Below, piece by piece: positions 31,485-51,595 of a stretch of 64,000 bases of DNA. Source of the stretch: Candidatus Multivoradales bacterium. Lineage in GTDB: Bacteria; Acidobacteriota; Thermoanaerobaculia; Multivoradales; JAHEKO01. A program made the position numbers and the translations under genes. Every line of letters starts with the position of its first letter. Position 1 is the first letter of the stretch. The notes under the pieces were generated by a model. The model was not told where the DNA came from. It made no database searches and was given only the letters and a program-made list of their open reading frames with translations. The stretch spans positions 2,766,796 to 2,830,795 of the forward strand of contig OZ243123.1 of NCBI GenBank assembly GCA_965212505.1. The letters are read 5' to 3'.

Positions 31485-31573
31485 ACAGCCCCCCTCTGCG
31501 ACTCGAAAAGGCTAAGGGACGGCAGGAGTCGAGTCAAGTCGAGATCCCTCCTTGCCTGCTAATCTCCCCCCGC

Positions 31574-32962: not shown

Positions 32963-32979
32963 GCGGCCCCCCACCGACG

Positions 32980-34077: not shown

Positions 34078-34092
34078 GCGCGGAGATCGGTC

Positions 34093-35220
34093 TTGGGCCA
34101 CCACATCGGCATCGACGCTCGCAAGCTGACCGACTTCGGCATCGGCACGTACATCCAGAACCTGATCCGGGCTCTGGCCGCGCGCGACGACGACAACCGC
34201 TACGTCCTGTTCGTGGGCGATTCTCACGAAGGCCTCCTCACCGACCTGCCCGAGAAGTTCGAGCTCGTCGTCGAGCGCTCGCCGGTCTATTCGGTGCGTG
34301 AGCTGGTAGCCCTCTCGTGGCGCCTCTTCCGCATGCGCCTCGACCTCTACCATGCGACCCACTACGTGCTGCCGGCCTATGTGCCGTGCAAGGCGGTCGT
34401 CACCATCCACGACATCATCCACCTCCTCTACCCGCAGTTCCTGCCCGGTCGCCTGGCCCATCTCTACGCCCGACGGATGATCCGCAGGAGCCTCCTGCGA
34501 GGGGATCGCATCATCGCCGGCTCACAGAACACCAAGACCGACCTGATGGACTACTTCCAGGTCAGCGGCGACAAGATCCACGTCGTCTACTATGGGGTCT
34601 CGAAGAGGTTCTCGGAGCGGTTCGACGAGCACGAGCTGACGGAGCGGCTCTCGGCCTTTTCGCTCGAACCCGGCTACGCCCTGTTCGTCGGCAACCCGAA
34701 ACCGCACAAGAATCGCGAGAACGTCGTCAAGGCGTTCGCACGTGCAAGCGAGCTCGGGCCGGCCGACACGCAGCTGGTCTGCGTCGGCGACCGGAAGAAG
34801 CGCGACTTCACGATCCAGGCGCGAGCGGATCAGTTAGGAATCGGCGACCGGCTTCACCTCGTGGGCCACGTCTCCAGCGCCGACCTCCGCGCGCTCTACC
34901 AGGGCGCCTCACTCTTCCTCTACCCGACCCTCTACGAGGGTTTCGGCCTGCCGGTGATCGAAGCGATGGCCAGCGGCGTACCGGTCATCACCTCGAACAG
35001 CTCAGCGCTCAAAGAGGTCGCCGAGGGTTACGCGCAGCTGGTCGACCCCCTCGACATCGAACAGATGGCGCGAGCGATCGCGCAGTGTCTGAGCGACCCG
35101 AACCACTCGGCCGCTCTCGCCAAGCTCGGCCTACGGCGTGCCGAAGACTTCCGCTGGGAACGAACGGCTCAGCGCACCCTCGAGATCTACGACAAGGCGC
35201 TGGCGACCGACGTCGCCTAG
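34093..35220 (+). CDS. glycosyltransferase family 4
   Basis: 375 aa. TTG start. GT4 motifs (LFVGNPKPHKN; YPTLYEGFGLPVIEAMASG). Confidence 0.75.
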   Translation: MGHHIGIDARKLTDFGIGTYIQNLIRALAARDDDNRYVLFVGDSHEGLLTDLPEKFELVVERSPVYSVRELVALSWRLFRMRLDLYHATHYVLPAYVPCKAVVTIHDIIHLLYPQFLPGRLAHLYARRMIRRSLLRGDRIIAGSQNTKTDLMDYFQVSGDKIHVVYYGVSKRFSERFDEHELTERLSAFSLEPGYALFVGNPKPHKNRENVVKAFARASELGPADTQLVCVGDRKKRDFTIQARADQLGIGDRLHLVGHVSSADLRALYQGASLFLYPTLYEGFGLPVIEAMASGVPVITSNSSALKEVAEGYAQLVDPLDIEQMARAIAQCLSDPNHSAALAKLGLRRAEDFRWERTAQRTLEIYDKALATDVA

Positions 35221-35237
35221 GCCGAGGCCCCCGAACC

Positions 35238-36326
35238 GTGAAAGTCGCCCTCGTTCACGATTGGCTAACCGGCATGCGCGGTGGCGAGTTCGTTCTCGAG
35301 GAGATCGCCGCCCTCTTCCCCACGGCGCCGATCTACACGCTCTTCCACTTCCCGGGAACGGTCAGCAAGACGCTCGAGAGTCACCCGATCGTGACCAGCG
35401 GGCTGCAGCACGCTCCCGGTATCGAAAGCCGCTACCGCCACTACCTGCCGTTCTTCCCGACCGCCATCGAGGAGTTCGACCTGACCGACTACGACCTCGT
35501 CGTGAGTGTGAGCCACGCGGTCGCCAAGTCGGTGATCTCAGGTCAGAAGACGTTCCACCTCTGCTACTGCAATACGCCCATGCGCTGGGCCTGGGACATG
35601 GAGCACGTCTACTTCCCGAAACGCACCGGCCCGGTGGCGCGCCTGCGAGCGATGATCCTCTCGCACCTACGGCAGTGGGACGTCCGCACGGCCGAGCGCG
35701 TCAGCCACTTTGTCGGCAACTCGAGTTTCGTGGCCGAGCGCATCGAACGCTACTACCAAAGACCGGCCGACGTGCTGCACCCGCCGGTCGATACCGACTA
35801 CTACACCCCCACCGAGAAGCCCAAGGGCGACTACTGCCTGATGGTCGCCGCCCTCGCGCCCTACAAGCGAGCGGATCTGGCGATCGCCGCCTGCGCGCGC
35901 CTGGGAATCGAGCTCCGGGTTGTCGGCACCGGCCCGGAGCAGGCACGCCTCGAACAGCTGAGCGACGGCACGACAAAGCTCCTCGGTCGCGTGTCGCGCG
36001 AGGAGCTGCGCGAGCTCTACCGCGGTGCACGCTGCGTCATTCAACCTGGCGTCGAGGACTTCGGCATCTCGAGCGTCGAGGCGCTCGCCTGCGGTACGCC
36101 GATGGTCGCCGCCGGCCGCGGTGGAATCTTGGACATCGTAAATGACGGCATTCACGGTACTCTCTACCCGCAGGAGGAGAGCGTCGAAGCGCTCGCTCAG
36201 GCGATTGACAAAACGCTCAACCTGCGTTTCAATTCTCTGGATCTCAGGAAACGCGCGGAGGCCTTCTCCACCCGTCGCTTTGTGGAAGGCCTGCGTGGTC
36301 TGGTCGACGAGAGGATAGAAAACTGA
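35238..36326 (+). CDS. glycosyltransferase family 4
   Basis: GTG start (VKVALVHDW…). GT4 motif LMVAALAPYKR…IQPGVEDFGISSVEALACGTP. The 669-aa ORF from 34317 is an out-of-frame read-through artefact over the previous gene. Confidence 0.7.
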   Translation: MKVALVHDWLTGMRGGEFVLEEIAALFPTAPIYTLFHFPGTVSKTLESHPIVTSGLQHAPGIESRYRHYLPFFPTAIEEFDLTDYDLVVSVSHAVAKSVISGQKTFHLCYCNTPMRWAWDMEHVYFPKRTGPVARLRAMILSHLRQWDVRTAERVSHFVGNSSFVAERIERYYQRPADVLHPPVDTDYYTPTEKPKGDYCLMVAALAPYKRADLAIAACARLGIELRVVGTGPEQARLEQLSDGTTKLLGRVSREELRELYRGARCVIQPGVEDFGISSVEALACGTPMVAAGRGGILDIVNDGIHGTLYPQEESVEALAQAIDKTLNLRFNSLDLRKRAEAFSTRRFVEGLRGLVDERIEN

Positions 36327-36385
36327 TCCACCGCCGCAATCGTCTGACCCAGGCGACCTACTTCGGTAGCGATCTCGTCTGGACA

Positions 36386-37765
36386 TTGGTCGCCTTCTTC
36401 GCCGCCTGGTATCTGCGGTTCGAAGTGGCGGTGTTGCCGATGTCGCTCGTCAATCCGCATCTGCCGGAGTTCGGGCGGTACCTGGCACTCCTACCCTTCG
36501 TGGTGCTTTTGTGGCCAGTGGTCTTCTACTTCCACGGCCTCTACCAGGTGCGCCGCGGGCGCTCTCGCGTGGACGAAGCGCTGAGCGTTCTGGTCGCAAT
36601 CCTGCTCGCCACCGTGCTGCTCTCGGTAGTCATCACCTGGTGGCGGCCCGAGTACCTGCGGGCTGACGGAACCACCGGGCCGTTCACCTACAGTCGATCG
36701 TTCCTGGCACTCTTCGCCGGGCTCGACCTGGTGGTCGTCGTCACCGGCCGCGCCCTCATCCGACGAGCGCTGGCACGACTCCGTCGCAGCGGCCACAACC
36801 TCCGCCGCATTCTGGTCGTCGGCGCCGGCGCCCTCGGCAAAGAGGTGACGCGCAAGATTCGGCACCACGAGGAGCTGGGCTTCGAAGTGGTCGGATTTGT
36901 GGACGACGATCCCGGTAAGGCGCGCGCGTCGTTTGTCGACGTACCCGTACTCGGCACGCTCGCCGACCTCGCTGGCATCCTCTCCGAACAGCGCATAGAC
37001 CAGGTGTTGATCACGCTGCCGCTCGACGCCTACAAGAAGACGCTCCGTGTCCTCGAGACCGTCGCGCGCGAGTGCGTCGAGGTGAAACTGGTCCCGGACA
37101 TTCTCCAGTTCGCCACCCTCCGCGCGACCATGGAGGATCTCGACGGCACACCGGTCATCAATCTGTCGCAGGTGCCGCTTCAGGGTTGGCACAGCATGGT
37201 CAAGCGCGGCATGGACATGTGCATCGCGCTCGCTGCGCTGCTGCTCCTCTTGCCCTTCCTGCCGTTCGTCGCCCTGCTGATCTGGCTCGAAGACCGCGGA
37301 CCCATCTTTTACCAGCAGGAGCGCATGGGCCTCGACGGCCGGCCGTTCATGATCTGGAAGCTCCGCTCGATGCGTGTCAACGCGGAGGCCAGTAGCGGGC
37401 CGGTGTGGGCGGTCGAGGACGACCCGCGCCGCACCGCCTTTGGCAGCTTCCTCCGCCGTTGGTCGCTCGACGAGTTGCCCCAGCTCTGGAACGTGCTCAA
37501 GGGCGAGATGTCGATCGTCGGCCCACGCCCCGAGCGCCCGGCCTTTGTCGACGAGTTCAAGAACCGCATGCCGCAGTACATGCACCGCCACCGCGTCAAG
37601 GCCGGCATCACCGGCTGGGCCCAGGTCCACGGCTGGCGGGGCAACACGTCGATCAAGAAGCGCCTTCAGTATGACCTCTACTACATCGAGAACTGGTCGC
37701 TGAAGCTCGACGTCAAGATCCTCTTCATGACCCTGCGGCACGGTCTGAAGTACAACGCCTACTAG
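36386..37765 (+). CDS. undecaprenyl-phosphate sugar phosphotransferase (exopolysaccharide priming glycosyltransferase, WcaJ/WbaP-like)
   Basis: C-terminal bacterial sugar transferase domain (PQLWNVLKGEMSIVGPRPERP…KAGITGWAQV). N-terminal TM helices. The in-frame upstream sequence LIHRRNRLTQATYFGSDLVW looks like the conserved N-terminus, so the true start may be near 36323. Confidence 0.8.
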   Translation: MVAFFAAWYLRFEVAVLPMSLVNPHLPEFGRYLALLPFVVLLWPVVFYFHGLYQVRRGRSRVDEALSVLVAILLATVLLSVVITWWRPEYLRADGTTGPFTYSRSFLALFAGLDLVVVVTGRALIRRALARLRRSGHNLRRILVVGAGALGKEVTRKIRHHEELGFEVVGFVDDDPGKARASFVDVPVLGTLADLAGILSEQRIDQVLITLPLDAYKKTLRVLETVARECVEVKLVPDILQFATLRATMEDLDGTPVINLSQVPLQGWHSMVKRGMDMCIALAALLLLLPFLPFVALLIWLEDRGPIFYQQERMGLDGRPFMIWKLRSMRVNAEASSGPVWAVEDDPRRTAFGSFLRRWSLDELPQLWNVLKGEMSIVGPRPERPAFVDEFKNRMPQYMHRHRVKAGITGWAQVHGWRGNTSIKKRLQYDLYYIENWSLKLDVKILFMTLRHGLKYNAY

Positions 37766-37858
37766 GTACCCCGATTCGGCAGGAAGCGCACCCGGCCAAC
37801 GAGACGGTCGATCCGTCGTAACTTGTGAGGGCCGGGCGGCGTAACTTGCCGCGGAATC

Positions 37859-39052
37859 ATGCGACATCGCCACTCCATCGCCCCACTTCTCGCCACGATC
37901 GTCCTGGGCTGCGCCCAGGCGCCACAGGCCAGCAATTCCCAACACCCCCGCGAGGCTCGCTACCAGGCGGTCCTCGACGCAGCCGGCGAGCTCGGCTTCC
38001 CCGGCTTCGCCCTCGTCGTCGACCGGGCCGACGAACCGCTCTGGGCGAGGGCACTCGGACACGCCGACCTCCTCGGCAACCGACCACTCGAGCTCGACGA
38101 CCCGTTCCATCTCGCGAGCGTCACGAAGGCGGTCACCGCGATGACAACGCTCCGGCTCGTCGACCGTGGCGTCATCGGACTCGACGATCTCGCCTTCGAG
38201 AGTCTCGACCGTGAAGCGGTTCGTGGCGTGCCGGCGATCGAGTCCATCACGGTTCGCCAGCTGCTCGAGCACACGAGTGGACTCGGCTCGTTCAACAACA
38301 ACCTCGACTACTGGCAGCTGCTGCTCGGCTCGGACGCCTACTCCGGACGCGACTGGTCGACGGCGGAGCTGATCGACTTCATTCGCGCGACCGAACCCGC
38401 AGGCGTTCCAGGAGAGGCCTACCACTACGCCGACTCGAACTACGTACTTCTGGGTGAGCTGATCGCCGCACGAACCGACACCACCTTTCGTGATGTCGTC
38501 CGCCGCGAGGTCTTCGAGCCACTCGCCATGCAGTCGGCCGGCTTCTACTCCGAGCTCCGCTCCGGAGTCGTGCCCTCTGCGCGACCGATGGTGGAGGGCT
38601 ATCTGCTGATGTCCGACGTCATCCGGACGTTCTCGCCCCATCCCGACCTCCCGGTTGTGAGGGAAGACCTCGTCCAGGCGACCATCGCCTACGAGCGCAG
38701 CGACACTGCCGCCGGCGTCGTCGCCAGCCCACTCGACATGCGCACGTTCGGCCGAGCGCTCTTTGCCGGAGACTTCTTGTCGGCAGAGGCTCATACTCTG
38801 CTGCGAGAGCCGATCGCTATCGCCCTCGCCGGCGGCGAGGAGGGCGCCGAAGCGGCCACGATTCTGCGCGCCTATGCCAAGCCCTACGGCGTCGTCGCCA
38901 CCGCCGAGGGTGATGGCCCAGGCGGCGTCCACACACTCCTCGCCTACCACCCCGACTCGGACACGGTGGTGGTGGCGTTCGGCAATCTCTTCGGACGCTT
39001 CGACGAGTGGGAGTTCCTGCTGGAACGGGTCCTGGACGGCGTTCTCGGGTAG
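37859..39052 (+). CDS. beta-lactamase-family serine hydrolase (lipoprotein)
   Basis: 397 aa. Signal/lipobox (LLATIVLGCAQA). SxxK motif (ASVTKAVTA) and a YxN-like motif (YADSNYVLLG). Confidence 0.7.
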   Translation: MRHRHSIAPLLATIVLGCAQAPQASNSQHPREARYQAVLDAAGELGFPGFALVVDRADEPLWARALGHADLLGNRPLELDDPFHLASVTKAVTAMTTLRLVDRGVIGLDDLAFESLDREAVRGVPAIESITVRQLLEHTSGLGSFNNNLDYWQLLLGSDAYSGRDWSTAELIDFIRATEPAGVPGEAYHYADSNYVLLGELIAARTDTTFRDVVRREVFEPLAMQSAGFYSELRSGVVPSARPMVEGYLLMSDVIRTFSPHPDLPVVREDLVQATIAYERSDTAAGVVASPLDMRTFGRALFAGDFLSAEAHTLLREPIAIALAGGEEGAEAATILRAYAKPYGVVATAEGDGPGGVHTLLAYHPDSDTVVVAFGNLFGRFDEWEFLLERVLDGVLG

Positions 39053-39123
39053 CGGCTCCACCGCCAGCGTGGTGTTACCCTTACTCCTAAGTTCTCCCTA
39101 CGGACGACCGAGGAGGGGTAGGC

Positions 39124-42100
39124 ATGACGACGCTTCGAGCGCCGGGCAGGCGTGACGAGTCGCTGAAGGTTCTGCGATCCGAGGTGGCAGAGGCGCTCGG
39201 CGGCGCCAAAGTACATGACGCAGTGCGTGTCGAGTCGACCCGAGCGGACGAGCCTCCGCACGAGGTTCGGAACGTCAGCGACGCACAGATTGTCGAGATC
39301 GAACTCGAGGGTGGGCTCCGTCAGTTCCTGCGCCTCGACCAGTTCCGTGAGGACTACGGTATCGACGCGTCCCGGGACGACAGCGGTGCCCTCGAGATCC
39401 CGCCCCGGATCGGGCGGCAAGAGCGCAGTCGAGGCATCGCCTCCGACATCGCTCTCAAGGCATTCCGGCTGATCGACGTCCCGCTCGAAGAGGGCGCGGC
39501 CAGAGCGGTCGCCGCACATTTCGAGAGCAAGCTCTCACAGGGCCTCCGCCGCTGGCACGCGGACGGCGCCCTCGACGAGGAGCCGATCACGTCTCCCGGC
39601 GACCTACCTGCTGACGAGCCGCTCCTGATCTTCCTCCACGGCACCGCCTCGACGACACTAGGCAGCTTTGACGCCCTCCGGAGTGAGAGCACCGACATCT
39701 GGAGGCAACTACGTGACGAGTACGACGATCGGATACTCGGCTTCGAACACCCGACCCTGACCTCGAGCCCGATCGACAACGTCATCAAACTACTCGAGGC
39801 ACTCCCCTCCCAGGCGAGACTGCACCTGGTCTCTCACTCACGTGGCGGACTCGTGGGAGAACTGCTCTGCCGGTCGAGAGTCTTGCGTTCGGGTTCGTCT
39901 TCGAACCGGCCGTTCGACAAGGCGGACTTCGCACAGTTCGGGGAACCGAAGTACCAAGAGCAGGAGAAGGCGCTCAAGCGCCTCGACGCACTCCTGCGCG
40001 AGAAACAGCCTCGTGTGGAGCGATTCGTCCGTGTCGCCTGCCCCACGCAAGGAACCGTCCTCCTCGCGAAGCGATTGGACCGTGCGTTCTCGCTCCTGGT
40101 GAATGCGCTCACCAAGACGACGGGCCTCGACAAGGTCTTCCTGGTGGACTTCGCGACGTCTCTCGCCATGGCGACAGCCAAGGAGCGCACCAATCCCGAG
40201 ACTCTGCCGGGGATCGAGGCGATGGTGCCGGACTCCGCTCTGGTCAAGGTCCTGAATCGCGCCGACATCGAGGTCGAAGCCGACCTGTCGGTGATCGCCG
40301 GCGACATCGAGGGCGAAGGCGTCTGGCAGCGATTGAAGGTGTTCGCGACGGACCTCTTCTACTGGCAGGATCACGACCTCGTCGTCCACACGCAGTCGAT
40401 GTACGGCGGCGGCCCGCGGAGCTCAGGCGCCAGGAAAGCCTTCGAGCAGGGCAGTCATGTCGATCACTTCAGCTACTTCCGCAACAAGTCAAGCGCCGAC
40501 AAGATCCATTGGGGTCTCCGCCACGACCAGGGGGACGACGGCGATTTCAGTCCGTTGGTAGGTCCGGCTCCGGAGCCGATCCACCTCTCCGCCCTGCGGT
40601 CGGGAGAGGCACGTCAAACCGTCTTTCTCGTCCCCGGCATCATGGGTTCTCACCTATCGGTCGGCGACGAGCGGATCTGGATCGACATCAAGGAGATCGC
40701 CAAGGGGCGCCTCTCCCGGCTGAAGGCGAGCGCGCTCGGCGTCAAGCCCGACGGCCTCGTCGAGCGTTCGTACAAAGCCCTGGCGGAGCATCTGGCGAAG
40801 CGCTACGACGTCGTCCTCTTTCCCTACGACTGGCGACGTTCGCTCCTCGAGGAGGGGCGACGCCTCGCCACAGAGGTCGACGACCGTCTGCGCGGGAGCG
40901 CTCTACCGGTCTCGATCGTCGCGCACTCGATGGGCGGTCTGCTGAGTCGCGCGATGATCGCCGAAAGAGAGGACGTCTGGGGACATCTTGTCGAGCGCGG
41001 AGGTCGCCTCGTCATGCTCGGCACCCCGAACGGCGGCTCGCACACCATCAGCAGCGTCCTCCTCGGACGAGACCGCATGGTGCGCAACCTAGCGCGGCTC
41101 GACTTCAAGAACGATCGCATGGAGGTGCTCGACATCGTTCGGAGGTTCAGGGGCCTGCTCGAACTGCTCCCCTCGGAGACCGAGCCGCACGACTACCTCT
41201 CCATCGACAGATGGCGCGAGCTCCACCAGACCTGGGACCAAAAGTGGCTCCCGCCCGATGCTCCCGACCTGGAGAGCGCCGCCCGATTGCGGGAGGCCCT
41301 GAGCAACCCGGCTACGATCGCCCCGGAGAACATGTCCTACATCGCCGGCAAGGCGCCCGCGACGCCGATCTCGGTCGAGATCGATGCCGAGGCCAAGGGC
41401 AAGAAGCGCATCCGGCTCATGGCCACCGAGGAGGGCGACGGCCGAGTCCCCTGGTCGACCGGCCGGCTTCCCGGAGTGGGCACCTGGTACATGGACGTGA
41501 AGCATGGCGCCCTCGCCAGCGACAGTGAAGGTTTCGACGCGATTGTCGACCTGGTCGAGACCGGCAACACCGACAGGCTCTCGACGACGCCGGCCGTCGT
41601 CCGGGGATCGACAGAACCGTTCGAGATGCTCGAGGAGGAGGCACCGGCCTACCCGGACGAGGCCGAACTCGAGGGCTCTGCGCTCGGCTTCGACCCGAGA
41701 GCCGCCAGCAAGCGGACGGTCCATCGCATCAAAGTCACCGTCACCCACGGCGACGTTCGCTTCTCGAAACACCCGGTGCTCGTCGGCCACTACGAGGACG
41801 ACTCGATCGTCGGGGCCGAGTGGGCCTTGAACGGAGCCCTCGACGGCCGACTTCAACGACGCCGAGACTTCGGCCTCTACCCGGGCCGAATCGGCTCGAC
41901 CGAGCTGTTCTTGAAGCCTGGCGGAGAACCGCCCGGCGCAATCGTCGTTGGCCTCGGCCCGGTAGGCGAGCTGTCCCCGGGCGAGCTTCGCGGAACTCTG
42001 GCGAGCGGCCTGACGCACTTTGCGATCGAGTCCGCGGAACTGCGACCGGACATCAGCTTCCACGCACTCACCGCGACCTCGATCCTGGTGGGCTCCGGCC

Positions 42101-44427
42101 AAGGCGGTATCCCACCGGTGGCGGCGCTTCGAGCGCTCCTGGAGGCAGCGGCCGATGCCAACGACGCCCTCCGCGGCAGCGACCTCGCCGACCGGGTGAG
42201 GTTCGACAGGATCGAACTGATCGAGATCCACCAGGATCGCGCCGTACGCACCGCGAAGCAGCTGCACGACCTGGCACGGCAGAAGAGTCTCAGAGAACGC
42301 TTCGACCTCTCGACCTGGCACGTTCAGCCGGGTCGCGGCGGCTTCCACCGCATCGCGCCCCGCGACGATGCGGCCTGGTGGGACCGCCTCCAGATCAGCG
42401 AGCGCGAACGGGACGGCGTTCTGGAGTTCGTCTCGCTCACCGGAGGCACCGCCGGCGCACGGGCCTACGATCTGCCCACCCAGCGAACGAGCATCGATGC
42501 CTTCCTGAGCCGCGCCGTCCGCACGATCCACTCCGACGAGCGACTCGCGAAGACCCTGTTCCAACTCCTCGTCCCCAATCAGATCAAGGTTGCCGCGCCC
42601 GAGGAGCGCGACCTCGTGCTCGTCGTCGACGAAGCTGCAGCTCGCTATCCGTGGGAACTCCTTCAGGACGCCTCAGACAAGGCCAAGCCCTTGAGCGTTC
42701 AGGCCGGCATGATCCGCCAGATGAAGAAGTCGAGCTTCCGCGAGAACCCGCGCTTCTCGGCCGACCTCAGCGCCTTCGTCGTTGGCGACCCGCCGACAGA
42801 CGACTTCGCCAAGCTTCCCGGAGCCGCGGCCGAAGCCGAAGCCGCTGCGGCCGCACTCGAGGGCTCCGGATTTCAAGTCGAAAAGCACGTCCAGCAAGGC
42901 TTCCAGAACGTCTTGACCGGGCTGTTTGCGCATCCCTACCGAGTGCTGCACCTCGCCGGACACGGCGTCTTCGAACACGTGAGGAAGGACCCCGCACCCG
43001 GTTCCGCCGAACAGAAGGTCACCGGCATGGTGCTGAGCGACGACGTGTTTCTCACCCCGGCGGAGATCAACCAGATGCTGATCGTCCCGGAGCTGGTCTT
43101 CATCAACTGTTGCTACCTTGGGCAGGCCGGTTCACCAGGCCGTCATGGAGATCGTGATCGGTACCACCACCTGGCCGCCAACCTCGGTACGCAGCTCATC
43201 CAGATGGGCGCTCGCGCGGTGATCGCCGCCGGCTGGGCGGTCGAGGACAACGCCGCCTCGGACTTCGCCGGCACCTTCTATCGAGAGATGCTCGCCGGAG
43301 CCCGTTTCGGCCAGGCCGTGAAGACCGCACGCGAGGAGACCTACGACGCACATCGCGCCACCAACACCTGGGGCGCCTACCAATGTTACGGCGACCCGGA
43401 CTACGCCCTTCTTCCCAATCGCCGCTCGGGCAGAGCGCGAGATCCCAACCTTCGTGCGGTCGTCGAGGAAGCGGTGCTCGAACTCGGCAACCTGGCGACG
43501 AAAGCTAGCAAGAGCACGGACGAGGAGCTGGACCATCTCAAGCGACGCATCGACGAACTGTCTGACAGCCTGCCGGCAAGCTGGCTAAAGGACGCTCGAC
43601 TCTTGGAGGCGCTCGGAAAGGCGTACGGCGAGGTCAGGATGTTCAAGCGAGCGGTGGACTACTACGAGCAAGCTCGCACTCGGGAAACGGCGACACTCTC
43701 GGTCAAGTCGCTCGAGCAGCTAGCAAACCTCCGCGGCAGATGGTCAGTCGACATTTGGAAGCAAGCGTCGCGAGGCGTCGAGTCCCGCGATGCGAGCCCA
43801 CGCAGGGTGATCCAGCAGGCGCACCAGGAGATCGAGACCCTGCTCAGTTTCGGAGAGACTCGAGAGCGCTACTCACTCCTGGGTTCCGCCAGGAAGCGTC
43901 TGGCCTGGATCGAGACTGGAGCAGCTCGAGACCGGGCTCTCGAAGGGATGCGCGAAGCCTACGAAAAGGCCGAGAGCCTGGGCCGAGACAAAGAGGGCTT
44001 TCTCTACCTCTACCCGGCACTGAACGCCCTCGCAGCGCGAGTCCTGATCCATGCTCGGGGAACGGGCAGGCGCCTGCCCGACCTCGACCAGAAGCTCGAC
44101 GAGATCGAGAAGTCGATCGGAGTCACTCCGAGCGAGGCGCCGTTCTTCGACGAGATTGGGCGCGTCGACGTCCAGTTGATGCGGGCGATCGGTCACAACA
44201 ACCTGGGCCCGGACGAACGGGAGCGCCTCGCGCTCGCGTACCAGGAAGCCCAGCAGAAAGGTAAGGGCACGCCGAAGCAGTGCAGCTCGGTCCGGGAGCA
44301 CCTCGAGTTCCTCTACGAGGTGCTCGGTGAGGAAACCGGACGCATGCGCAAGACGCGTCGGCGTGAGCTGCAGCGAGGTCTGTCGGTGCTCTTGCGAGCG
44401 CTCCAGGCGAGTCCAGCCGGCTCATGA
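39124..44427 (+). CDS. giant multidomain protein (1767 aa): two lipase-like alpha/beta-hydrolase domains, a central unknown domain, a CHAT (caspase-like) protease domain and a C-terminal helical repeat region
   Basis: Strong GAGGAGGGG RBS. Domain 1: LLIFLHGTAST…LVSHSRGGLV. Domain 2: VFLVPGIMGS…YDWRRS…IVAHSMGGLLS…LGTPNGGS (PGAP1/LCAT-like). CHAT domain: VLHLAGHG…FINCCYLGQ…GARAVIAAGWAVEDNAA…YREM. No signal peptide. Confidence 0.75.
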   Translation: MTTLRAPGRRDESLKVLRSEVAEALGGAKVHDAVRVESTRADEPPHEVRNVSDAQIVEIELEGGLRQFLRLDQFREDYGIDASRDDSGALEIPPRIGRQERSRGIASDIALKAFRLIDVPLEEGAARAVAAHFESKLSQGLRRWHADGALDEEPITSPGDLPADEPLLIFLHGTASTTLGSFDALRSESTDIWRQLRDEYDDRILGFEHPTLTSSPIDNVIKLLEALPSQARLHLVSHSRGGLVGELLCRSRVLRSGSSSNRPFDKADFAQFGEPKYQEQEKALKRLDALLREKQPRVERFVRVACPTQGTVLLAKRLDRAFSLLVNALTKTTGLDKVFLVDFATSLAMATAKERTNPETLPGIEAMVPDSALVKVLNRADIEVEADLSVIAGDIEGEGVWQRLKVFATDLFYWQDHDLVVHTQSMYGGGPRSSGARKAFEQGSHVDHFSYFRNKSSADKIHWGLRHDQGDDGDFSPLVGPAPEPIHLSALRSGEARQTVFLVPGIMGSHLSVGDERIWIDIKEIAKGRLSRLKASALGVKPDGLVERSYKALAEHLAKRYDVVLFPYDWRRSLLEEGRRLATEVDDRLRGSALPVSIVAHSMGGLLSRAMIAEREDVWGHLVERGGRLVMLGTPNGGSHTISSVLLGRDRMVRNLARLDFKNDRMEVLDIVRRFRGLLELLPSETEPHDYLSIDRWRELHQTWDQKWLPPDAPDLESAARLREALSNPATIAPENMSYIAGKAPATPISVEIDAEAKGKKRIRLMATEEGDGRVPWSTGRLPGVGTWYMDVKHGALASDSEGFDAIVDLVETGNTDRLSTTPAVVRGSTEPFEMLEEEAPAYPDEAELEGSALGFDPRAASKRTVHRIKVTVTHGDVRFSKHPVLVGHYEDDSIVGAEWALNGALDGRLQRRRDFGLYPGRIGSTELFLKPGGEPPGAIVVGLGPVGELSPGELRGTLASGLTHFAIESAELRPDISFHALTATSILVGSGQGGIPPVAALRALLEAAADANDALRGSDLADRVRFDRIELIEIHQDRAVRTAKQLHDLARQKSLRERFDLSTWHVQPGRGGFHRIAPRDDAAWWDRLQISERERDGVLEFVSLTGGTAGARAYDLPTQRTSIDAFLSRAVRTIHSDERLAKTLFQLLVPNQIKVAAPEERDLVLVVDEAAARYPWELLQDASDKAKPLSVQAGMIRQMKKSSFRENPRFSADLSAFVVGDPPTDDFAKLPGAAAEAEAAAAALEGSGFQVEKHVQQGFQNVLTGLFAHPYRVLHLAGHGVFEHVRKDPAPGSAEQKVTGMVLSDDVFLTPAEINQMLIVPELVFINCCYLGQAGSPGRHGDRDRYHHLAANLGTQLIQMGARAVIAAGWAVEDNAASDFAGTFYREMLAGARFGQAVKTAREETYDAHRATNTWGAYQCYGDPDYALLPNRRSGRARDPNLRAVVEEAVLELGNLATKASKSTDEELDHLKRRIDELSDSLPASWLKDARLLEALGKAYGEVRMFKRAVDYYEQARTRETATLSVKSLEQLANLRGRWSVDIWKQASRGVESRDASPRRVIQQAHQEIETLLSFGETRERYSLLGSARKRLAWIETGAARDRALEGMREAYEKAESLGRDKEGFLYLYPALNALAARVLIHARGTGRRLPDLDQKLDEIEKSIGVTPSEAPFFDEIGRVDVQLMRAIGHNNLGPDERERLALAYQEAQQKGKGTPKQCSSVREHLEFLYEVLGEETGRMRKTRRRELQRGLSVLLRALQASPAGS

Positions 44428-44466: not shown

Positions 44467-46560
44467 CTACGCCGCCTTGCGTAGCGCGTCTCGCACGACG
44501 TCGAGAACGTCTCTGAGTTCAGCGAGTTCTGCGTCGGAGAGCCGGCGCTCGGCGAAGCTCTCCTCGATGTAGAGGCGGACGACGCGGCGAGTCTCCTCGG
44601 CGGCGTCGGGGCACGAGGCGAGTACCCGGCGCTCGACGTCGACCGGGCCGAGTGTTTCGGGCTGTCGCTCGAGTTCGGTGCTCCGCCGTACCAGTTCGCT
44701 GCGCAGCATGCGATAGGCGGCGGTTGCCGTCCAAGGGGTACGGGCCCGCCAGAGCCACCAGAGACCAAGGAGAGCAACCAATGCCGTCACCAACCACCGC
44801 CACGTCTCCGGCGGGGCGTTCTCGAGCGCGCCAGTCTCGGCCGCATCGGCGGCGACGGCGGCGTCCGCCTCAGACACCAACTCGTCCTCCCCGTCGAACC
44901 ACCCACGAATGCCCGAGAGGAAATCGCGCGCCCGCACGAGGAAATCGAGCTGATCGAAGAAGCCGAAGGTCAGCACATATCGATCCCAGCGGAAGAGCAC
45001 GTAGTCGTACGCCTGACTGAAGAACTGGAGCATGCCGCCGTCACCCACCTGGGGACGACCGACCGGAGGCGTCGGGTCGAAGACGCTCCACTCCTGACCG
45101 TCGACCATCGCTTCGACCCAGGCGTGAGCGTTGGTCTGGCGCACGATGTAGTAGCCCTCGAGCGGGTTGAACTCGGCTCCCAGATAGCCGCTCACCATCC
45201 TTGCGGGAATCCCCTGAGACCGGAGGAGCAGCACCATCGCGGTGGCGAAGTACTCGCAATGGCCCGACTTCTCTTCGAAGAGGAACTCCTCGATCGGGTT
45301 CTGCTGATCGCGCACTCCGAGCTCGAGCGTGTAGCTGTGCTCGCTCATCAGGTACCGCTCGAGACGCTCGGCGCGCACCCGAATCTCACCATCGCCCATG
45401 ACGTTGCCGGCCAGGGTGCGCATGCGTTCCGAGACCGCGGAGTCGTCGAGGTCCAGCTGCGAGGCGGGCGTCTCGAGCCGGACGGTCGGCCGATCGTCCC
45501 GCGCCAGGCCCACCTTGAAGTCGAAGGTTGTCGTCGGCGGCACCGGCAGGAAGACAACGCCGCTGTCGTCGAGCTGAACCGACGGGACCCAGAGGTCGAA
45601 CGCCAGGGCATTGGTGGGCAGCAGAAGCTCCCGCCCACCCTTGCTCTGCCAGACCTCGAGCCAACTTCCCGCCGAGCCCTCCCCCAGCCGGAAGAAGCCG
45701 TCCGGGCCCCGATCGAGTGGGGTCGAACTCCGTTGGCCGCGCAGCCACGCATTGCGCTGGAAGCGCCCGTAGGTCGCCGCCTTGAAGCGCATCTCGTCGG
45801 CCGCGATCTCGGGGCCCTGCTGAGAGAACCGAAGGACAACCGATCGCCCCGTCCGTACCGAGCCGATGGTGTCGAGGGTCAGCCCTCCCGCAAAGCCGCC
45901 TCCGGCACCACCCGAGGCGCTGCCCACTCCGGGGCCAAACAGGTATGGCTGCCGCAGTCGGGGCAAGAACGCGAACAGTGGGATCGAAGAGAGCAGAACC
46001 AGCAGACCCACGGCACCGATGAAGCGCTTGAGCTTCAGCTCCTGTCGCGACCTCACCATGCCGTGTTCCGCGAGCACCGCGAAACCGGTGAAGCGGATGA
46101 GAACCGTCAAGGCGCCAAAAAGGAAGACCAGCAGATAGATCGCCACCGCCGGGTTGACACTGGTGCCCATGGCGGCCAGGAACAGGAAGAAGATGGCCAG
46201 GAGCGACTGCCAGTAGTCCCGCTCCTGCTTGAGCGAAAAGAGTTTGACCACCAAGGCGAAAAGGATCAGGTGGGTCAACGAGCGCATCAACTGCTGGTGC
46301 ATCCACCAGGTCGACATCTCGTACGCCAGAACCGGTAGGTAGAGGAGACCGAGAACGTTCATGACCCAGGGCCGCAGCGGGCTGTAGGTCGCGCTCAAGA
46401 CACGCACCAGGAAGAGCGCCGTCACCAGCGTGAACGCACTTACCGAAAGCCAGCCGATGACCCCGTTGAAGGGCAACGGTAGCGGCGCCAGAAGCGCCAA
46501 CACGCCCAGCATCAGACGCTTCTCGCTCGTGAAGGCGACCGACGACGTCGATGCGCTCAT
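44467..46560 (-). CDS. transglutaminase-like membrane protein (TgpA family; DUF3488 TM domain + transglutaminase core)
   Basis: 697 aa. N-terminal ~6 TM helices. Transglutaminase core with catalytic Cys: EEKSGHCEYFATAMVLLLRSQGIPARMVSGY. Confidence 0.75.
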   Translation of the reverse strand: MSASTSSVAFTSEKRLMLGVLALLAPLPLPFNGVIGWLSVSAFTLVTALFLVRVLSATYSPLRPWVMNVLGLLYLPVLAYEMSTWWMHQQLMRSLTHLILFALVVKLFSLKQERDYWQSLLAIFFLFLAAMGTSVNPAVAIYLLVFLFGALTVLIRFTGFAVLAEHGMVRSRQELKLKRFIGAVGLLVLLSSIPLFAFLPRLRQPYLFGPGVGSASGGAGGGFAGGLTLDTIGSVRTGRSVVLRFSQQGPEIAADEMRFKAATYGRFQRNAWLRGQRSSTPLDRGPDGFFRLGEGSAGSWLEVWQSKGGRELLLPTNALAFDLWVPSVQLDDSGVVFLPVPPTTTFDFKVGLARDDRPTVRLETPASQLDLDDSAVSERMRTLAGNVMGDGEIRVRAERLERYLMSEHSYTLELGVRDQQNPIEEFLFEEKSGHCEYFATAMVLLLRSQGIPARMVSGYLGAEFNPLEGYYIVRQTNAHAWVEAMVDGQEWSVFDPTPPVGRPQVGDGGMLQFFSQAYDYVLFRWDRYVLTFGFFDQLDFLVRARDFLSGIRGWFDGEDELVSEADAAVAADAAETGALENAPPETWRWLVTALVALLGLWWLWRARTPWTATAAYRMLRSELVRRSTELERQPETLGPVDVERRVLASCPDAAEETRRVVRLYIEESFAERRLSDAELAELRDVLDVVRDALRKAA

Positions 46561-47555
46561 CGCTGCCCCCCGGTCATCGCAGCGCGGAACTCGAGCGGCG
46601 AGGGTTCGGGGCTCTCGAGCGGCCGGCGCTCCGACGGGCGCGCCTGGATCAGGGCCAGCTCCTCCAGGATTCGGAGTCGCTGCGCTTGTCCGCGCCCGAA
46701 CGGAACGATGCCCTCTCGAGTCACCAGCTGTACCTCGTGCCCGCGCTCCAGATGCTGTTCCGCTGCGCTCGCCGCCTCGCTCACCAACCGCTCGAACCGC
46801 AGTTCGGCGGAACGCTCGGAGAGCTCACCGACGGCATTGTCGAACACGATCGAGAGGCGCTCACCATGCTCCGCCTCGCGCTCCATGTAGACCATGCGCC
46901 CGGTGCGCGCGCTCTGCTTCCAGTGAATCCCGCGCGGATCGTCGCCGGGGCGGAACTCTCGCAGAGTCAAGAGCTCATGACCCCACCCCGCCTTCTGTGA
47001 CGGCTGTTCTCCGGCGCGTCCGGTCGAGGTCGGGCGCGCGTCGGCCGGTTGAATCTCGGGGAAGACCAACACCTCGAGGTCGACCGGCAGCCGCATCGAC
47101 TTGAAGATCAAGCCGAGCGGAAAGATCGAGGCCAGACGCACGCTCGAAACGGTGTGCCGGCCGCGCTCCTTGAAGAGCGTCGCCATTTGCAGCTGCCGGG
47201 TGCCACGCCGTTCGAGGCGTGGTACCAGGCGCTCCTCGCCTTCGCCGGCGGTGCTCAGGACGAGCAGACGCTTCGCCCACCAGCGGTCGGTGCTCGTCAA
47301 CTCGACCGAGAGGGAAAACGGCTGGCGGGCGTAGATCTCGTCCGGTCCGCGCACCTCGGCGCTCACATACTGCAGATTCCGGCGCGAGATCACCCCCGAG
47401 ACCGCCAACAGGCCCAGCAGCATGGCCTCGACTAGATAGAGAGCATTGTTACCGGTGTTGGCGGCCGCCAGCCCCACTACGAGAGTGAGAAAGGCGTACC
47501 AGAACCCCACCTTGGTGATGCGGATCCGGTCGAAGGCAGCGCGTCGGGAAGCCAT
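46557..47555 (-). CDS. DUF58 domain protein (vWA-like), MoxR partner
   Basis: 332 aa. Two N-terminal TM helices, then the DUF58 signature (…REFRPGDDPRGIHWKQSARTGRMVYMERE…). 4-nt overlap with tgpA. Confidence 0.75.
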   Translation of the reverse strand: MASRRAAFDRIRITKVGFWYAFLTLVVGLAAANTGNNALYLVEAMLLGLLAVSGVISRRNLQYVSAEVRGPDEIYARQPFSLSVELTSTDRWWAKRLLVLSTAGEGEERLVPRLERRGTRQLQMATLFKERGRHTVSSVRLASIFPLGLIFKSMRLPVDLEVLVFPEIQPADARPTSTGRAGEQPSQKAGWGHELLTLREFRPGDDPRGIHWKQSARTGRMVYMEREAEHGERLSIVFDNAVGELSERSAELRFERLVSEAASAAEQHLERGHEVQLVTREGIVPFGRGQAQRLRILEELALIQARPSERRPLESPEPSPLEFRAAMTGGQR

Positions 47556-47588
47556 GATTCGAGCAGGGTCGCGCCCGGCGGGCGCGTT

Positions 47589-48578
<990 letters not shown>

Positions 48579-48611: not shown

Positions 48612-49169
48612 TCACCCGTCGAGCCCGTCGAACTCGCGGTAGTCGCCCCGGTCCGCCTCCGCGATCGGCTGCCGGACCTCGACGAAGAAGCCGTCACCGT
48701 CCACGTAGTCGACGTCCTCGATCACGTGGCTGTACTGCGTCGGATTGGCCCGCGGCACGTTTGCCGTGTCCACCCAGAGGCGCCAGTGCCCCTTCTCGTT
48801 TTCGTTGCTGTCCACCTGGACGATGTCGACCGTCACACCTGCCAGCTGTTCGAAGCTGTCGTGCTTGACGATCAGGTCCAGGTGCACGTTCTGCACAACC
48901 TCGACCGCCGGCGGTTCGGCGTCCATCTCGTCCGTCCCGTCTCCAGCCTCTTCCTCCGCCTCCGTGGCCTCACCGTCGCCTTCAGCCATCGGATCGACCT
49001 CAGCGACCACCGGAGTCTCCTGTACGAAGAAGCCGTTCACCTCGGCGCTGTAACGGGACCGATTCTCCTCGAGCTGCTCGAGCGGGCTCTTCGACGCGCA
49101 CCCGCCGAGAATGATCAGCGCTACCGCCACCAGGGCCACAACCCTCCCAATCGTCTGCATTCGCTGCAC
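48612..49169 (-). CDS. acidic lipoprotein of unknown function
   Basis: Lipobox: ALIILGGCAS. GTG start 5 nt after an AAGGAGG SD. ATG 49160 or 49226 are possible alternatives. D/E-rich N-terminal region. Confidence 0.4.
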   Translation of the reverse strand: MQRMQTIGRVVALVAVALIILGGCASKSPLEQLEENRSRYSAEVNGFFVQETPVVAEVDPMAEGDGEATEAEEEAGDGTDEMDAEPPAVEVVQNVHLDLIVKHDSFEQLAGVTVDIVQVDSNENEKGHWRLWVDTANVPRANPTQYSHVIEDVDYVDGDGFFVEVRQPIAEADRGDYREFDGLDG

Positions 49170-49347
49170 TGCCACCTCCTTGTTGGGTTTCTGGTGACGC
49201 GGATCGGATTCGTGGGTGTGGGTCAACCTGCGGTTTCCACGGGTGAATCGGTCACTGTCACCTTTCGCAGAATGATAACGAAAGGCCCGATGGAACCTAG
49301 CAAAGGCCCCCTCAGCCGGCAGCGGCCTATCTCACAGGCAGAGCCGG

Positions 49348-50331: not shown

Positions 50332-50542
50332 GGGAGGCAACGGCGGGGGAGCGTTCGCCACGGTTCGATCGCTTCCCGCTTCGCACGACACCCACTCCCT
50401 GCCCCGCTCACCATCCCAGCGGCGGCATTCAGGGCGACCCTCAGGTGCCGCTTCCCCGCCGTTTCTCAAATCGACGGCGAGCGATTAGTATACCGCCGAG
50501 GTCTGCGCCGCCCGGCCTCGATTCCCTACAGGAGCAAGGCCC

Positions 50543-51595
<1,053 letters not shown>

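What the first reader, a model, noticed from the sequence alone, without database searches (positions are those of the whole stretch)
39124..44427. Giant 1767-aa protein combining two lipase-like alpha/beta-hydrolase domains with a CHAT caspase-like protease
One continuous ORF with a strong RBS encodes, in order:
(i) an alpha/beta hydrolase with the HSxGG nucleophile motif (VSHSRGG);
(ii) a second PGAP1/LCAT-like hydrolase (VAHSMGG, YDWRRS);
(iii) a ~350-aa region with no family I recognise;
(iv) a textbook CHAT domain with the His/Cys dyad context (LHLAGHG … FINCCYLGQ … GARAVIAAGW);
(v) a ~300-aa helical tail.

CHAT proteases are normally fused to TPR/NB-ARC sensors or partnered with CRISPR type III-E or gasdermin systems. 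I do not know a described architecture where a CHAT sits behind tandem lipase modules.

By analogy with self-processing toxins, the protease could release or activate the lipase domains. Alternatively the lipase domains could be lipid sensors gating the protease.

No signal peptide is present. Genomic context: a beta-lactamase-family lipoprotein 70 nt upstream on the same strand, and a MoxR-DUF58-TgpA triad convergent downstream.
Basis: partly seen in the sequence, partly recalled or inferred. Interest (0 to 1): 0.8.

Follow-up and report, generated by a model that had tools for sequence, protein, structure and literature searches.

The report
Giant lipase-Macro-CHAT-TPR sensor protease protein
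This is a real 1767-residue bacterial protein that joins two lipase-type enzymes to a caspase-like protease flanked by two likely small-molecule sensor domains; it belongs to a widespread, untested family whose relatives sit beside immune-type (TIR, caspase) genes, so it is most likely a self-contained cell-suicide or anti-phage device.

Summary

Both Ser-Asp-His triads and the His/Cys dyad are kept in 119-120 of 120 homologs that are only about 40% identical overall.

The architecture is not rare. More than 1500 proteins and at least 590 species carry it, across many phyla and on plasmids. They are annotated only as "CHAT/DUF7379 domain-containing protein", and I found no functional study.

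The beta-lactamase and MoxR-DUF58-TgpA neighbours are incidental (1 of 80 loci each). Recurrent partners in relatives are:
- a small C14 caspase immediately upstream (31 of 69 loci);
- TIR proteins, or a fused C-terminal TIR;
- TPR-S/TIR-like proteins, patatin and peptidoglycan hydrolases.

A Rhizobium plasmid encodes the Macro-CHAT-TPR-S core alone, between two TIR-STAND genes.

Best reading: a ligand-gated CHAT protease with fused phospholipase warheads, related in logic to Thoeris and SAVED-CHAT systems. The window copy is an orphan with no TIR nearby. It is a new variant of a known kind, of moderate to high interest.

The parts
39110..39116 (+). Shine-Dalgarno GAGGAGG, 7 nt before the ATG
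   Evidence: Read directly from the sequence.
39124..44427 (+). Complete ORF, 1767 aa plus stop codon. The product is cytoplasmic, with no signal peptide and no TM segment.
   Evidence: An identical protein, P0001, is on record from a 5.12-Mb contig.
39124..39618 (+). N-terminal region, aa 1-165. It is conserved (R40, R103-G104, G140-L141) but has no family assignment. It may be an extension of hydrolase 1.
   Evidence: Conservation. No Pfam or PDB match. Not modelled.
39619..40533 (+). Alpha/beta-hydrolase 1 (Pfam DUF7379), aa ~166-470. The nucleophile is Ser239 in the motif SHSRGG. Asp418 and His448 are the likely other triad members.
   Evidence: Pfam E 1e-34, 120.6 bits. S239, D418 and H448 are each kept in 120/120 homologs. 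The Asp and His assignments rest on motif position and are inferred.
40615..41658 (+). Alpha/beta-hydrolase 2, LCAT/LPLA2-like, aa ~498-845. Key motifs are PYDWRR, AHS602MGG, GD772GRV and H794.
   Evidence: Pfam LCAT 28.8 bits against a cut-off of 21. PDB matches to LPLA2 4x90: E 0.005 with the single sequence and E 8e-6 with the profile. LCAT matches at E ~1e-3. S602 is kept in 119/120, D772 and H794 in 120/120.
41659..41730 (+). Linker between hydrolase 2 and the Macro domain, aa 846-869. A conserved [DE]L.AAALG motif is followed by a variable stretch of 12-17 aa that is rich in K and R. This is a candidate protease-accessible cleavage site.
   Evidence: K+R content is 33% here against 12% over the whole protein. 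Cleavage at this site is inference only.
41731..42303 (+). Macro-fold domain, aa ~870-1060. In sequence it is closest to the N-domain of M17 aminopeptidases. Invariant residues include H875-G876, G888-H889-Y890, D893, E899, GLGxxG (943-948), the G-rich loop 990-995 and D1038.
42304..42540 (+). Beta-rich connector followed by helices, preceding the CHAT core, aa 1061-1139.
   Evidence: Secondary structure of model m56e2dd576470, where this stretch has lower confidence.
42541..43395 (+). CHAT caspase-like protease domain, aa 1140-1424. His1280 lies in the motif AGHG. Cys1329 and Cys1330 lie in the motif NCCYLG, and C1330 fits the CxxG pattern.
43462..44424 (+). C-terminal all-helical TPR-S ("TPR-sensor") domain, aa ~1447-1767. 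The Pfam core covers 1507-1637. Conserved charged residues are E1531, R1539, E1581-R1582 and K1591.

Best explanation
The gene encodes a self-contained, cytoplasmic conflict (abortive-infection type) effector. It has a sensor-protease core, Macro-fold domain then CHAT protease then TPR-S domain, fused to two lipase/phospholipase-type alpha/beta-hydrolase "warheads".

Proposed sequence of events:
1. The 195-kDa protein is held inactive.
2. A small-molecule or protein trigger binds the Macro-fold and/or the TPR-S domain. The most likely trigger is an NAD-derived, ADP-ribose-type signal made by a TIR enzyme.
3. Binding switches on the CHAT protease, probably through oligomerisation, as in SAVED-CHAT.
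4. The protease cuts itself and/or partner proteins. The candidate self-cleavage site is the K/R-rich linker at aa 856-869. Partner proteins, where present, are the adjacent C14 caspase or cell-wall hydrolases.
5. The two lipases are thereby freed or unmasked and attack membrane phospholipids, killing or arresting the cell.

What is shown: the domain identities, the strict conservation of all three catalytic centres and of the Macro pocket residues, the separability of the Macro-CHAT-TPR-S core, and its genomic linkage to TIR, caspase and patatin genes in relatives.

What is inferred: the ligand, the activation mode, the cleavage targets, lipid hydrolysis, and a defence role. In this window no TIR or caspase gene is nearby, so the trigger for this copy is unknown.
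For: Domain identities:
- Pfam assignments.
- TPR-S domain resembling the ASK1 and SAMD9 helical domains.
- LCAT/LPLA2 match including the PYDWRR, AHSMGG and GDGRV motifs.

Conservation:
- Catalytic Ser/Asp/His (two sets) and the His/Cys dyad are kept in 119-120 of 120 homologs at about 40% identity.
- The conserved Macro residues lie at the C-terminal ends of the strands and in the loops that follow. That is the face where macro domains bind ADP-ribose.

Link to TIR signalling:
- 17 relatives carry a C-terminal TIR whose catalytic Glu motif (WVxWE) is kept.
- A Rhizobium plasmid encodes a Macro-CHAT-TPR-S protein without lipases, flanked by two TIR-nSTAND1-WD40 genes.
- The 48%-identical homolog has a DUF4062 (TIR-like) gene 270 nt downstream and a TIR-nSTAND1-WD40 gene nearby.
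- TIR, patatin and TPR-S/TIR-like neighbours recur, and they match PADLOC defence models.

Protease cascade: a C14 caspase gene lies immediately upstream in 31 of 69 loci.

Precedents in the literature:
- SAVED-CHAT is activated by a nucleotide and cleaves PCaspase (10.1101/2023.06.23.546230).
- TIR-made N7-cADPR activates a caspase-like protease (10.1101/2024.10.24.620036).
- Macro and TPR domains act as sensors in type II and type VIII Thoeris (10.64898/2025.12.03.692087).
- Caspase autoproteolysis was predicted to release fused effectors (PMC7159879).
Against: - No TIR, caspase, patatin or TPR-S partner lies anywhere in the 64-kb window. The gene sits among housekeeping genes, and its GC3 matches theirs.
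- PADLOC and NCBIfam do not recognise the protein.
- The Macro-fold domain lacks the canonical macro loop-1 GGG and NAAN motifs. In sequence it is closer to the LAP N-domain, which is not known to bind ADP-ribose.
- No experiment exists on any family member. TIR genes lie near only a minority of homologs (about 12 of 80 loci).
- The inter-domain geometry of the models is unreliable (pTM 0.52). The N-terminal half was not modelled.
Confidence: 0.5

Rival explanations
1. Protease-output model. The real output is proteolysis: the CHAT protease acts directly or through the adjacent C14 caspase, in a cascade like SAVED-CHAT to PCaspase. The two hydrolases are not membrane toxins. They would be obligate partners of the protease, for example processing or de-acylating a substrate or signal, or serving as a scaffold. 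This echoes the "alpha/beta-hydrolase always accompanies the caspase" rule reported for VMAP systems.
For: - A C14 caspase lies upstream in 31 of 69 loci.
- Kaur et al. report that caspase domains are always accompanied by an alpha/beta-hydrolase gene.
- An LCAT-like hydrolase also occurs in a trypsin-like peptidase protein (hit H11).
- SAVED-CHAT and type IV Thoeris kill by proteolysis.
Against: - The LCAT/LPLA2 relationship and lipase-type [GA]HSxGG motifs point to lipid substrates.
- The Macro-CHAT-TPR-S core exists without the hydrolases. So the hydrolases are dispensable add-ons, as effectors typically are.
- This window has no C14 partner.
Confidence: 0.2
2. Non-defence physiological role. 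The protein would be a regulated protease-lipase used for the cell's own programme, such as membrane or envelope remodelling, stress signalling or developmental cell death. This would be comparable to the CHAT-containing anti-sigma factor DdvA or to eukaryotic separase.
For: - In the window the gene lies among housekeeping and envelope genes (EPS glycosyltransferases, a beta-lactamase-family lipoprotein, MurB), and its GC3 equals that of its neighbours.
- The four closest homologs have unrelated, mostly metabolic neighbours.
Against: - The family is patchily distributed across many phyla and occurs on plasmids.
- The neighbours that recur are immune-type genes: TIR, caspase, patatin and STAND.
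- No housekeeping partner is conserved.
Confidence: 0.12
3. Plant-EDS1-like receptor model. The tandem lipase-like pair is itself the sensing module, binding a lipid or a TIR-derived nucleotide. It would gate the CHAT protease without needing catalysis.
For:
- In plants, the TIR-signal receptors (EDS1-PAD4) are pairs of lipase-like proteins. This rests on my own knowledge and on reference 45 listed.
- There is a TIR linkage in relatives.
Against: - Both triads are invariant in 119-120 of 120 homologs, which argues for catalysis.
- Dedicated sensor-type domains (Macro, TPR-S) are present.
- The core works without the lipases in Rhizobium.
Confidence: 0.08
4. Functional unit with the neighbouring MoxR-DUF58(vWA)-TgpA triad, as a MoxR-vWA ternary conflict system, or with the upstream beta-lactamase-like lipoprotein.
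For: - The genes are physically close.
- MoxR-vWA ternary systems with caspase plus hydrolase effectors are described in the literature.
- The MoxR here has a weak hit to the bpMoxR model.
Against: - The triad is convergent, on the opposite strand.
- MoxR appears in 1 of 80 homolog loci, and the beta-lactamase family also in 1 of 80.
- The closest homologs lack both.
- MoxR-DUF58-TgpA is a common stand-alone operon (my own knowledge).
Confidence: 0.03

Closest known systems
SAVED-CHAT / PCaspase cascade of a type III-B CRISPR-CBASS hybrid (Steens et al., bioRxiv 10.1101/2023.06.23.546230; PDB 8tl0)
   Same: - A nucleotide-sensor domain sits directly N-terminal to a CHAT protease.
- A separate C14 caspase gene is adjacent in 31 of 69 relatives, mirroring the CHAT-to-PCaspase arrangement.
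   Different: - The sensor here is a Macro-fold domain plus TPR-S, not SAVED.
- There is no CRISPR or CD-NTase context.
- Two lipase domains are fused.
- The window copy has no caspase partner.
Thoeris systems: type II (Macro-domain effector), type IV (TIR to N7-cADPR to caspase-like ThsE), type VIII (ThsI with the Aravind TPR, which senses cADPR)
   Same: - The parts list overlaps: a Macro-type and a TPR-S-type putative sensor, a caspase-superfamily protease, and TIR proteins fused or adjacent in relatives.
   Different: - All the parts are combined in a single polypeptide, with added lipases.
- The protease is of the CHAT type, not a ThsE-type caspase.
- The window has no adjacent TIR gene.
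- No signal molecule is known.
Craspase TPR-CHAT (Csx29) and eukaryotic separase
   Different: In Csx29 the TPR is N-terminal and activation is by Cas7-11 with its RNA. Neither has a Macro domain or lipases. There is no Cas gene or CRISPR array here.
Alpha/beta-hydrolase-caspase pairs of MoxR-vWA (VMAP) and GAP1 conflict systems (Kaur et al. 2020, PMC7159879)
   Same: A caspase-superfamily peptidase is coupled to an alpha/beta-hydrolase. The same paper predicts that proteolysis releases effectors.
   Different: There the two are usually separate genes inside NTPase-regulated ternary systems. Here they are fused, and no cognate MoxR-vWA-VMAP operon is present.
LCAT / lysosomal phospholipase A2 (LPLA2) family
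   Same: Hydrolase 2 shares the PYDWRR motif, the AHSMGG nucleophile elbow and the GDGxV Asp motif.
   Different: Only about 90 residues align significantly. The protein is bacterial and cytoplasmic, and the domain is embedded in a multidomain protein. Its substrate is unknown.
Patatin/CapV-type phospholipase effectors of CBASS
   Same: The concept is the same: a signal-activated phospholipase acts as a membrane-destroying abortive-infection effector. Patatin genes occur in some homolog loci and match CBASS phospholipase models.
   Different: The fold is different (alpha/beta-hydrolase versus patatin). Activation here would go through a protease rather than by direct nucleotide binding.

Membership tests
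CHAT (Pfam PF12770, caspase-like clan CD proteases) | Profile match above the curated threshold over the whole domain | tested here: met
   113.5 bits against a cut-off of 24, covering profile positions 2-289 of 289.
CHAT (Pfam PF12770, caspase-like clan CD proteases) | Catalytic His and Cys dyad present and conserved | tested here: met
   H1280 is kept in 120/120 homologs, C1330 in 120/120 and C1329 in 119/120.
CHAT (Pfam PF12770, caspase-like clan CD proteases) | Caspase/hemoglobinase fold resembling separase and Csx29 | tested here: met
CHAT (Pfam PF12770, caspase-like clan CD proteases) | Proteolytic activity | not testable with these tools
   Needs biochemistry.
LCAT/LPLA2-like alpha/beta-hydrolase (PF02450) | Profile match above the threshold | tested here: met
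   28.8 bits against a cut-off of 21, but only profile positions 87-173 of 392 are covered. The family profile matches LPLA2 at E 8e-6.
LCAT/LPLA2-like alpha/beta-hydrolase (PF02450) | Ser-Asp-His triad in the family's motifs (xHSxG, GDGxV, H) | tested here: met
   S602 is kept in 119/120 homologs, D772 in 120/120 and H794 in 120/120. The Asp and His assignments are by motif analogy.
LCAT/LPLA2-like alpha/beta-hydrolase (PF02450) | Phospholipase or acyltransferase activity; membrane-binding and cap domains | not tested
DUF7379 (PF24096) alpha/beta-hydrolase | Profile match above the threshold, with a conserved nucleophile | tested here: met
   120.6 bits against a cut-off of 33. S239, D418 and H448 are kept in 120/120 homologs.
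Macro domain superfamily | Three-layer alpha/beta/alpha macro fold | tested here: met
Macro domain superfamily | Sequence-profile membership (Pfam Macro) and the canonical ADP-ribose-binding motifs (NAAN, GGG loop 1) | tested here: not met
   No Pfam Macro hit. There is only Peptidase_M17_N at E 0.014, below its cut-off. Loop 1 reads GHYxGD instead. A G-rich loop 2 (GTGAGG-like) is present.
Macro domain superfamily | Binding or hydrolysis of ADP-ribose derivatives | not testable with these tools
   Needs ligand-binding assays.
TPR-S (PF20308; sensor TPR of TIR-linked conflict systems) | Profile match above the threshold | tested here: met
   40.5 bits against a cut-off of 27.6. The fold resembles the ASK1 central regulatory region and SAMD9.
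Thoeris-type TIR signalling system | A TIR (ThsB-like) gene in the same locus as the effector | tested here: not met
   There is no TIR in the window by tblastn or by Pfam on the neighbours. In relatives the feature is met in part: fused TIR and flanking TIR genes.
Thoeris-type TIR signalling system | Effector activated by a TIR-made nucleotide; anti-phage protection | not testable with these tools
   Needs experiments.
MoxR-vWA (VMAP) ternary conflict system | A co-oriented MoxR + vWA + effector operon that is conserved across homologs | tested here: not met
   The triad is on the opposite strand and convergent. MoxR lies near 1 of 80 homologs.
Type III-E Craspase / gasdermin-protease systems | An adjacent Cas7-11 gene with a CRISPR array, or an adjacent gasdermin gene | tested here: not met
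   No tandem arrays in the window. The neighbours are a beta-lactamase-family gene, a sugar transferase and TgpA. No such gene cluster recurs among the 80 loci.

The most novel reading that the evidence does not exclude
The family is a "one-protein immune pathway". A Macro-fold and/or TPR-S domain reads a TIR-derived ADP-ribose-type messenger, possibly a new one. This switches on a separase-like CHAT protease, which cuts the K/R-rich linker and releases two phospholipases. Where partner genes are present it also activates a C14 caspase and cell-wall hydrolases. That would make it a bacterial pathway joining TIR signalling, a caspase cascade and lipase executioners, the three ingredients that plants (TIR with the EDS1/PAD4 lipase-like proteins) and animals (caspases) use separately. 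The orphan copy in this window would then respond to a TIR enzyme encoded elsewhere in the genome, or to a different cue.
Probability: 0.2. Interest if true: 0.8.

Novelty: new variant of a known kind. Interest (0 to 1): 0.6.

Why it matters
If the model holds, this family would be an uncharacterised and very widespread immune or cell-death module. It is present in at least 590 species across more than 10 phyla, including cultured strains such as Geobacter metallireducens, Azotobacter chroococcum, Thauera, Rhizobium and Paracoccus.

It would couple small-molecule sensing to a protease and then to membrane-destroying lipases within one polypeptide. That adds a new effector logic (protease-released lipases) and a new sensor (an M17_N-like Macro fold) to TIR/Thoeris-type signalling. 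It would also give a tractable bacterial model for caspase cascades.

Practically, the work here:
- assigns a fold to a ~290-aa unannotated region in about 1900 protein clusters;
- shows which genomic partners (C14 caspase, TIR-STAND, peptidoglycan hydrolases) should be cloned with the protein for testing.

Tried and rejected
- NCBIfam and PADLOC gave no hit for the protein.
- An exact-sequence look-up of P0001 contigs returned nothing. The source taxon was instead inferred from PlsX as Thermoanaerobaculia-like Acidobacteriota.
- "DUF7379" occurs in no held paper. The paper that defines TPR-S (Burroughs & Aravind 2020, J Bacteriol) is not held. I therefore could not check whether this exact architecture is drawn there.
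- Single-sequence PDB search of the C-terminal half gave only spurious LRP4 hits.
- hhalign of the TPR-S region against a neighbouring TPR-S protein was not significant. The assignment rests on Pfam.
- The shorter "variants" in the representative library mostly start in the middle of a domain and are 5'-truncated fragments. I did not use them as evidence of modularity. The annotated Rhizobium plasmid protein was used instead.
- The promoter and terminator scan found nothing useful.
- The afdb50 fold library was unavailable.
- A functional link to MoxR-DUF58-TgpA or to the beta-lactamase gene was rejected because it is not conserved.
- The ORF upstream of the homolog in L084 is low-complexity junk.
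- A weak caspase-like tblastn hit at window 18654-18800 falls inside an Fe-S/CCG-domain gene and is chance.
Full report
**1. The observation**

The ORF at 39124-44427 (+) is real. It is 1767 aa long with an ATG start, and a GAGGAGG Shine-Dalgarno lies 7 nt upstream.

Pfam supports four domains above their curated cut-offs:
- DUF7379, an alpha/beta-hydrolase: E 1e-34.
- LCAT-like hydrolase: E 1e-6. PGAP1 and DUF676 score just below threshold.
- CHAT: E 1.6e-32, full length of the profile.
- TPR-S in the C-terminal "helical tail": E 4e-10.

NCBIfam and PADLOC give nothing. The protein has no signal peptide and no TM segment. Its GC3 (0.81) matches that of its neighbours. PlsX from the same window is 67-70% identical to PlsX of Thermoanaerobaculia/Acidobacteriota MAGs. 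The window therefore probably comes from an acidobacterial chromosome.

**2. The unassigned middle region is a Macro-fold domain**

I aligned aa 850-1140 with 24 homolog segments. The resulting AlphaFold2 model has mean pLDDT 84.8 and pTM 0.79, with pLDDT above 90 for aa ~870-1060.

The sequence profile weakly matches a LAP N-domain (E 0.001). This explains the sub-threshold Peptidase_M17_N hit in Pfam.

The canonical macro loop-1 motif is replaced by an invariant GHYxGD...E. A glycine-rich loop 2 (GTGAGG-like) is retained. The invariant residues (H875-G876, H889, Y890, D893, E899, GLGxxG, D1038) all sit at strand ends or in the loops that follow, which is the usual ligand cleft of macro domains. 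The fold is therefore established. ADP-ribose-type binding is an inference.

**3. The protease and the tail**

A model of aa 1060-1767 has pLDDT 82.4 but pTM only 0.52, so the domain orientations are unreliable.

Hydrolase 2 aligns with LPLA2 and LCAT around PYDWRR and AHSMGG. The single-sequence match has E 0.005 and the family profile E 8e-6.

**4. Conservation**

I compared 120 full-length homologs at 37-54% identity.

| Element | Residues and counts out of 120 |
|---|---|
| Hydrolase 1 triad | S239 120, D418 120, H448 120 |
| Hydrolase 2 triad | S602 119, D772 120, H794 120 |
| CHAT dyad | H1280 120, C1330 120 |
| Macro-fold domain | H889 120, D893 120, E899 120 |

All three enzymes therefore appear to be catalytically active.

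**5. How common the family is**

The architecture is a large family:
- More than 1500 hits in the protein collection. The top 120 all have the same domain order, and 15 of them carry an extra TIR.
- At least 590 GTDB species encode a relative. The phyla include Desulfobacterota, Nitrospirota, Acidobacteriota, Verrucomicrobiota, Gemmatimonadota, Bacteroidota, Pseudomonadota, Actinomycetota, Chloroflexota and Bacillota.
- The Macro-like profile finds 1901 cluster representatives, essentially all of this family.
- Copies lie on plasmids of Paracoccus, Azotobacter, Ensifer and Burkholderia.

Database names are only "CHAT domain-containing" or "DUF7379 domain-containing protein". I found no functional study.

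**6. Genomic context**

The window's own neighbours are EPS glycosyltransferases, a sugar transferase and a beta-lactamase-family lipoprotein upstream. Downstream lie convergent TgpA, DUF58 and MoxR, then MurB.

None of these is conserved. MoxR and the beta-lactamase family each occur near 1 of 80 homologs. The four closest homologs sit in four different contexts. The window holds no TIR, caspase, patatin or TPR-S gene.

What recurs in relatives:
- A small Peptidase_C14 caspase immediately upstream on the same strand in 31 of 69 loci. Counting only the nearest neighbours at a stricter threshold gives 21 of 132.
- TPR-S proteins with a TIR-like N-domain in 19 of 80 loci.
- TIR_2 proteins in about 12 of 80 loci, and patatin in 6 of 80.
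- Peptidoglycan hydrolases downstream: Peptidase_M15_3 in 15 of 80, and GH108 in Rhizobium.

These neighbours match PADLOC caspase, ThsB/TIR and CBASS-phospholipase models.

In 17 proteins, including the G. metallireducens homolog, a TIR with its catalytic Glu motif follows the TPR-S domain.

A Rhizobium leguminosarum plasmid encodes a 936-aa Macro-CHAT-TPR-S protein without any lipase. It lies between two TIR-nSTAND1-WD40 genes. The same kind of TIR-STAND gene, plus a DUF4062 gene, lies near the 48%-identical homolog.

So the Macro-CHAT-TPR-S core is a separable unit linked to TIR proteins, and the lipases behave as add-on effectors.

**7. Mechanism**

By analogy with experimentally studied systems:
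- SAVED-CHAT is switched on by cA3 and cleaves PCaspase.
- TIR-made N7-cADPR activates a caspase-like protease.
- Macro and TPR domains serve as signal receptors in type II and type VIII Thoeris.
- Caspase autoproteolysis was predicted to free fused effectors.

I propose the following. A ligand binds the Macro-fold and/or TPR-S domain and activates the CHAT protease. The protease then releases or unmasks the two phospholipase-type domains and, where partner genes are present, processes a C14 caspase or cell-wall hydrolases.

A conserved AAALG motif followed by a K/R-rich variable linker lies between hydrolase 2 and the Macro domain. Its K+R content is 33% against 12% overall. It is a candidate cleavage site.

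The domain identities, conservation and associations are shown. The ligand, the activation mode, the targets and the defence role are inferred.

**8. Rivals**

- Proteolysis is the output and the hydrolases are protease partners (0.2).
- A non-defence physiological role (0.12).
- The lipase pair acts as a receptor, as EDS1-PAD4 does in plants (0.08).
- A functional unit with the MoxR triad (0.03).

**9. Verdict**

It is a new variant of a known kind, namely TIR/TPR-S/caspase conflict systems. It is uncharacterised experimentally, and this analysis adds a newly recognised Macro-fold sensor candidate.

Interest 0.6.

Noticed in passing
L049:9023-9817 (+) and 30 other homolog loci, for example L042-L075: A small (~264-aa) Peptidase_C14 caspase gene with intact SGHG and DSCHSG motifs lies immediately upstream of the giant gene on the same strand in 31 of 69 loci. 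It is absent from this window. The arrangement suggests a CHAT-to-caspase cascade.
   Followed up: partly
L085 (Rhizobium leguminosarum plasmid CP050083.1) 1999-15889: A stand-alone 936-aa Macro-CHAT-TPR-S protein (6983-9793) lies between two TIR-nSTAND1-WD40 proteins. It is followed by a GH108 + PG_binding_3 muramidase, and all the genes are on one strand.
   Followed up: partly
L058:6806-20261 (Ferribacterium MAG): A seven-gene, same-strand island. In order: a TPR-S/TIR-like protein, a C14 caspase, the giant protein, Peptidase_M15_3, a 522-aa multi-TM protein with no Pfam hit, patatin, and a second TPR-S protein.
   Followed up: partly
P0121 (G. metallireducens, 2159 aa) and 16 other proteins longer than 2100 aa: These proteins carry a C-terminal extension after TPR-S. 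It consists of a linker, a beta-rich domain of ~130 aa with no assignment, and a TIR_2 domain with a conserved WVxWE catalytic Glu motif.
   Followed up: partly
L046:15337-16071 and 14 other beta-proteobacterial loci; L001:2050-3069: Cell-wall hydrolase or binding genes (Peptidase_M15_3, PG_binding_1) recur right next to the giant gene. They are possible protease-activated lysis effectors.
   Followed up: no
L082:15613-16158 and 23901-25343: The 48%-identical homolog has a DUF4062 gene 270 nt downstream and a TIR-nSTAND1-WD40 gene nearby. A 2026 preprint abstract describes DUF4062 as a TIR-like NADase family.
   Followed up: no
window 41659-41730 (aa 846-869): A conserved [DE]L.AAALG motif is followed by a K/R-rich variable linker (33% K+R) between hydrolase 2 and the Macro domain.
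   Followed up: partly
window 44467-48578 (-): A TgpA (transglutaminase), DUF58, MoxR (AAA_3) operon lies convergent to the giant gene, with only 39 nt between the two stop codons. It is not conserved with the family.
   Followed up: yes
window 31388-37765 (+): An exopolysaccharide-type cluster: two GT4 glycosyltransferases, which also hit the "GT4-conflict" Pfam model weakly, and a Bac_transf/CoA_binding_3 priming sugar transferase.
   Followed up: no
window 48612-49226 (-), 50441-51661 (-), 53661-55169 (+): Three ORFs of 203, 405 and 502 aa have no Pfam match. The 856-aa antisense ORF at 36491-39061 (-) also has none and is probably a high-GC shadow ORF.
   Followed up: no
plasmid hits H10 (NZ_CP071627.1) and H11 (NZ_CP042263.1): The LCAT-like hydrolase module alone (aa ~500-820) also occurs in another "CHAT domain-containing protein" and in a "trypsin-like peptidase domain-containing protein". 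This hints at a general lipase-peptidase pairing.
   Followed up: no
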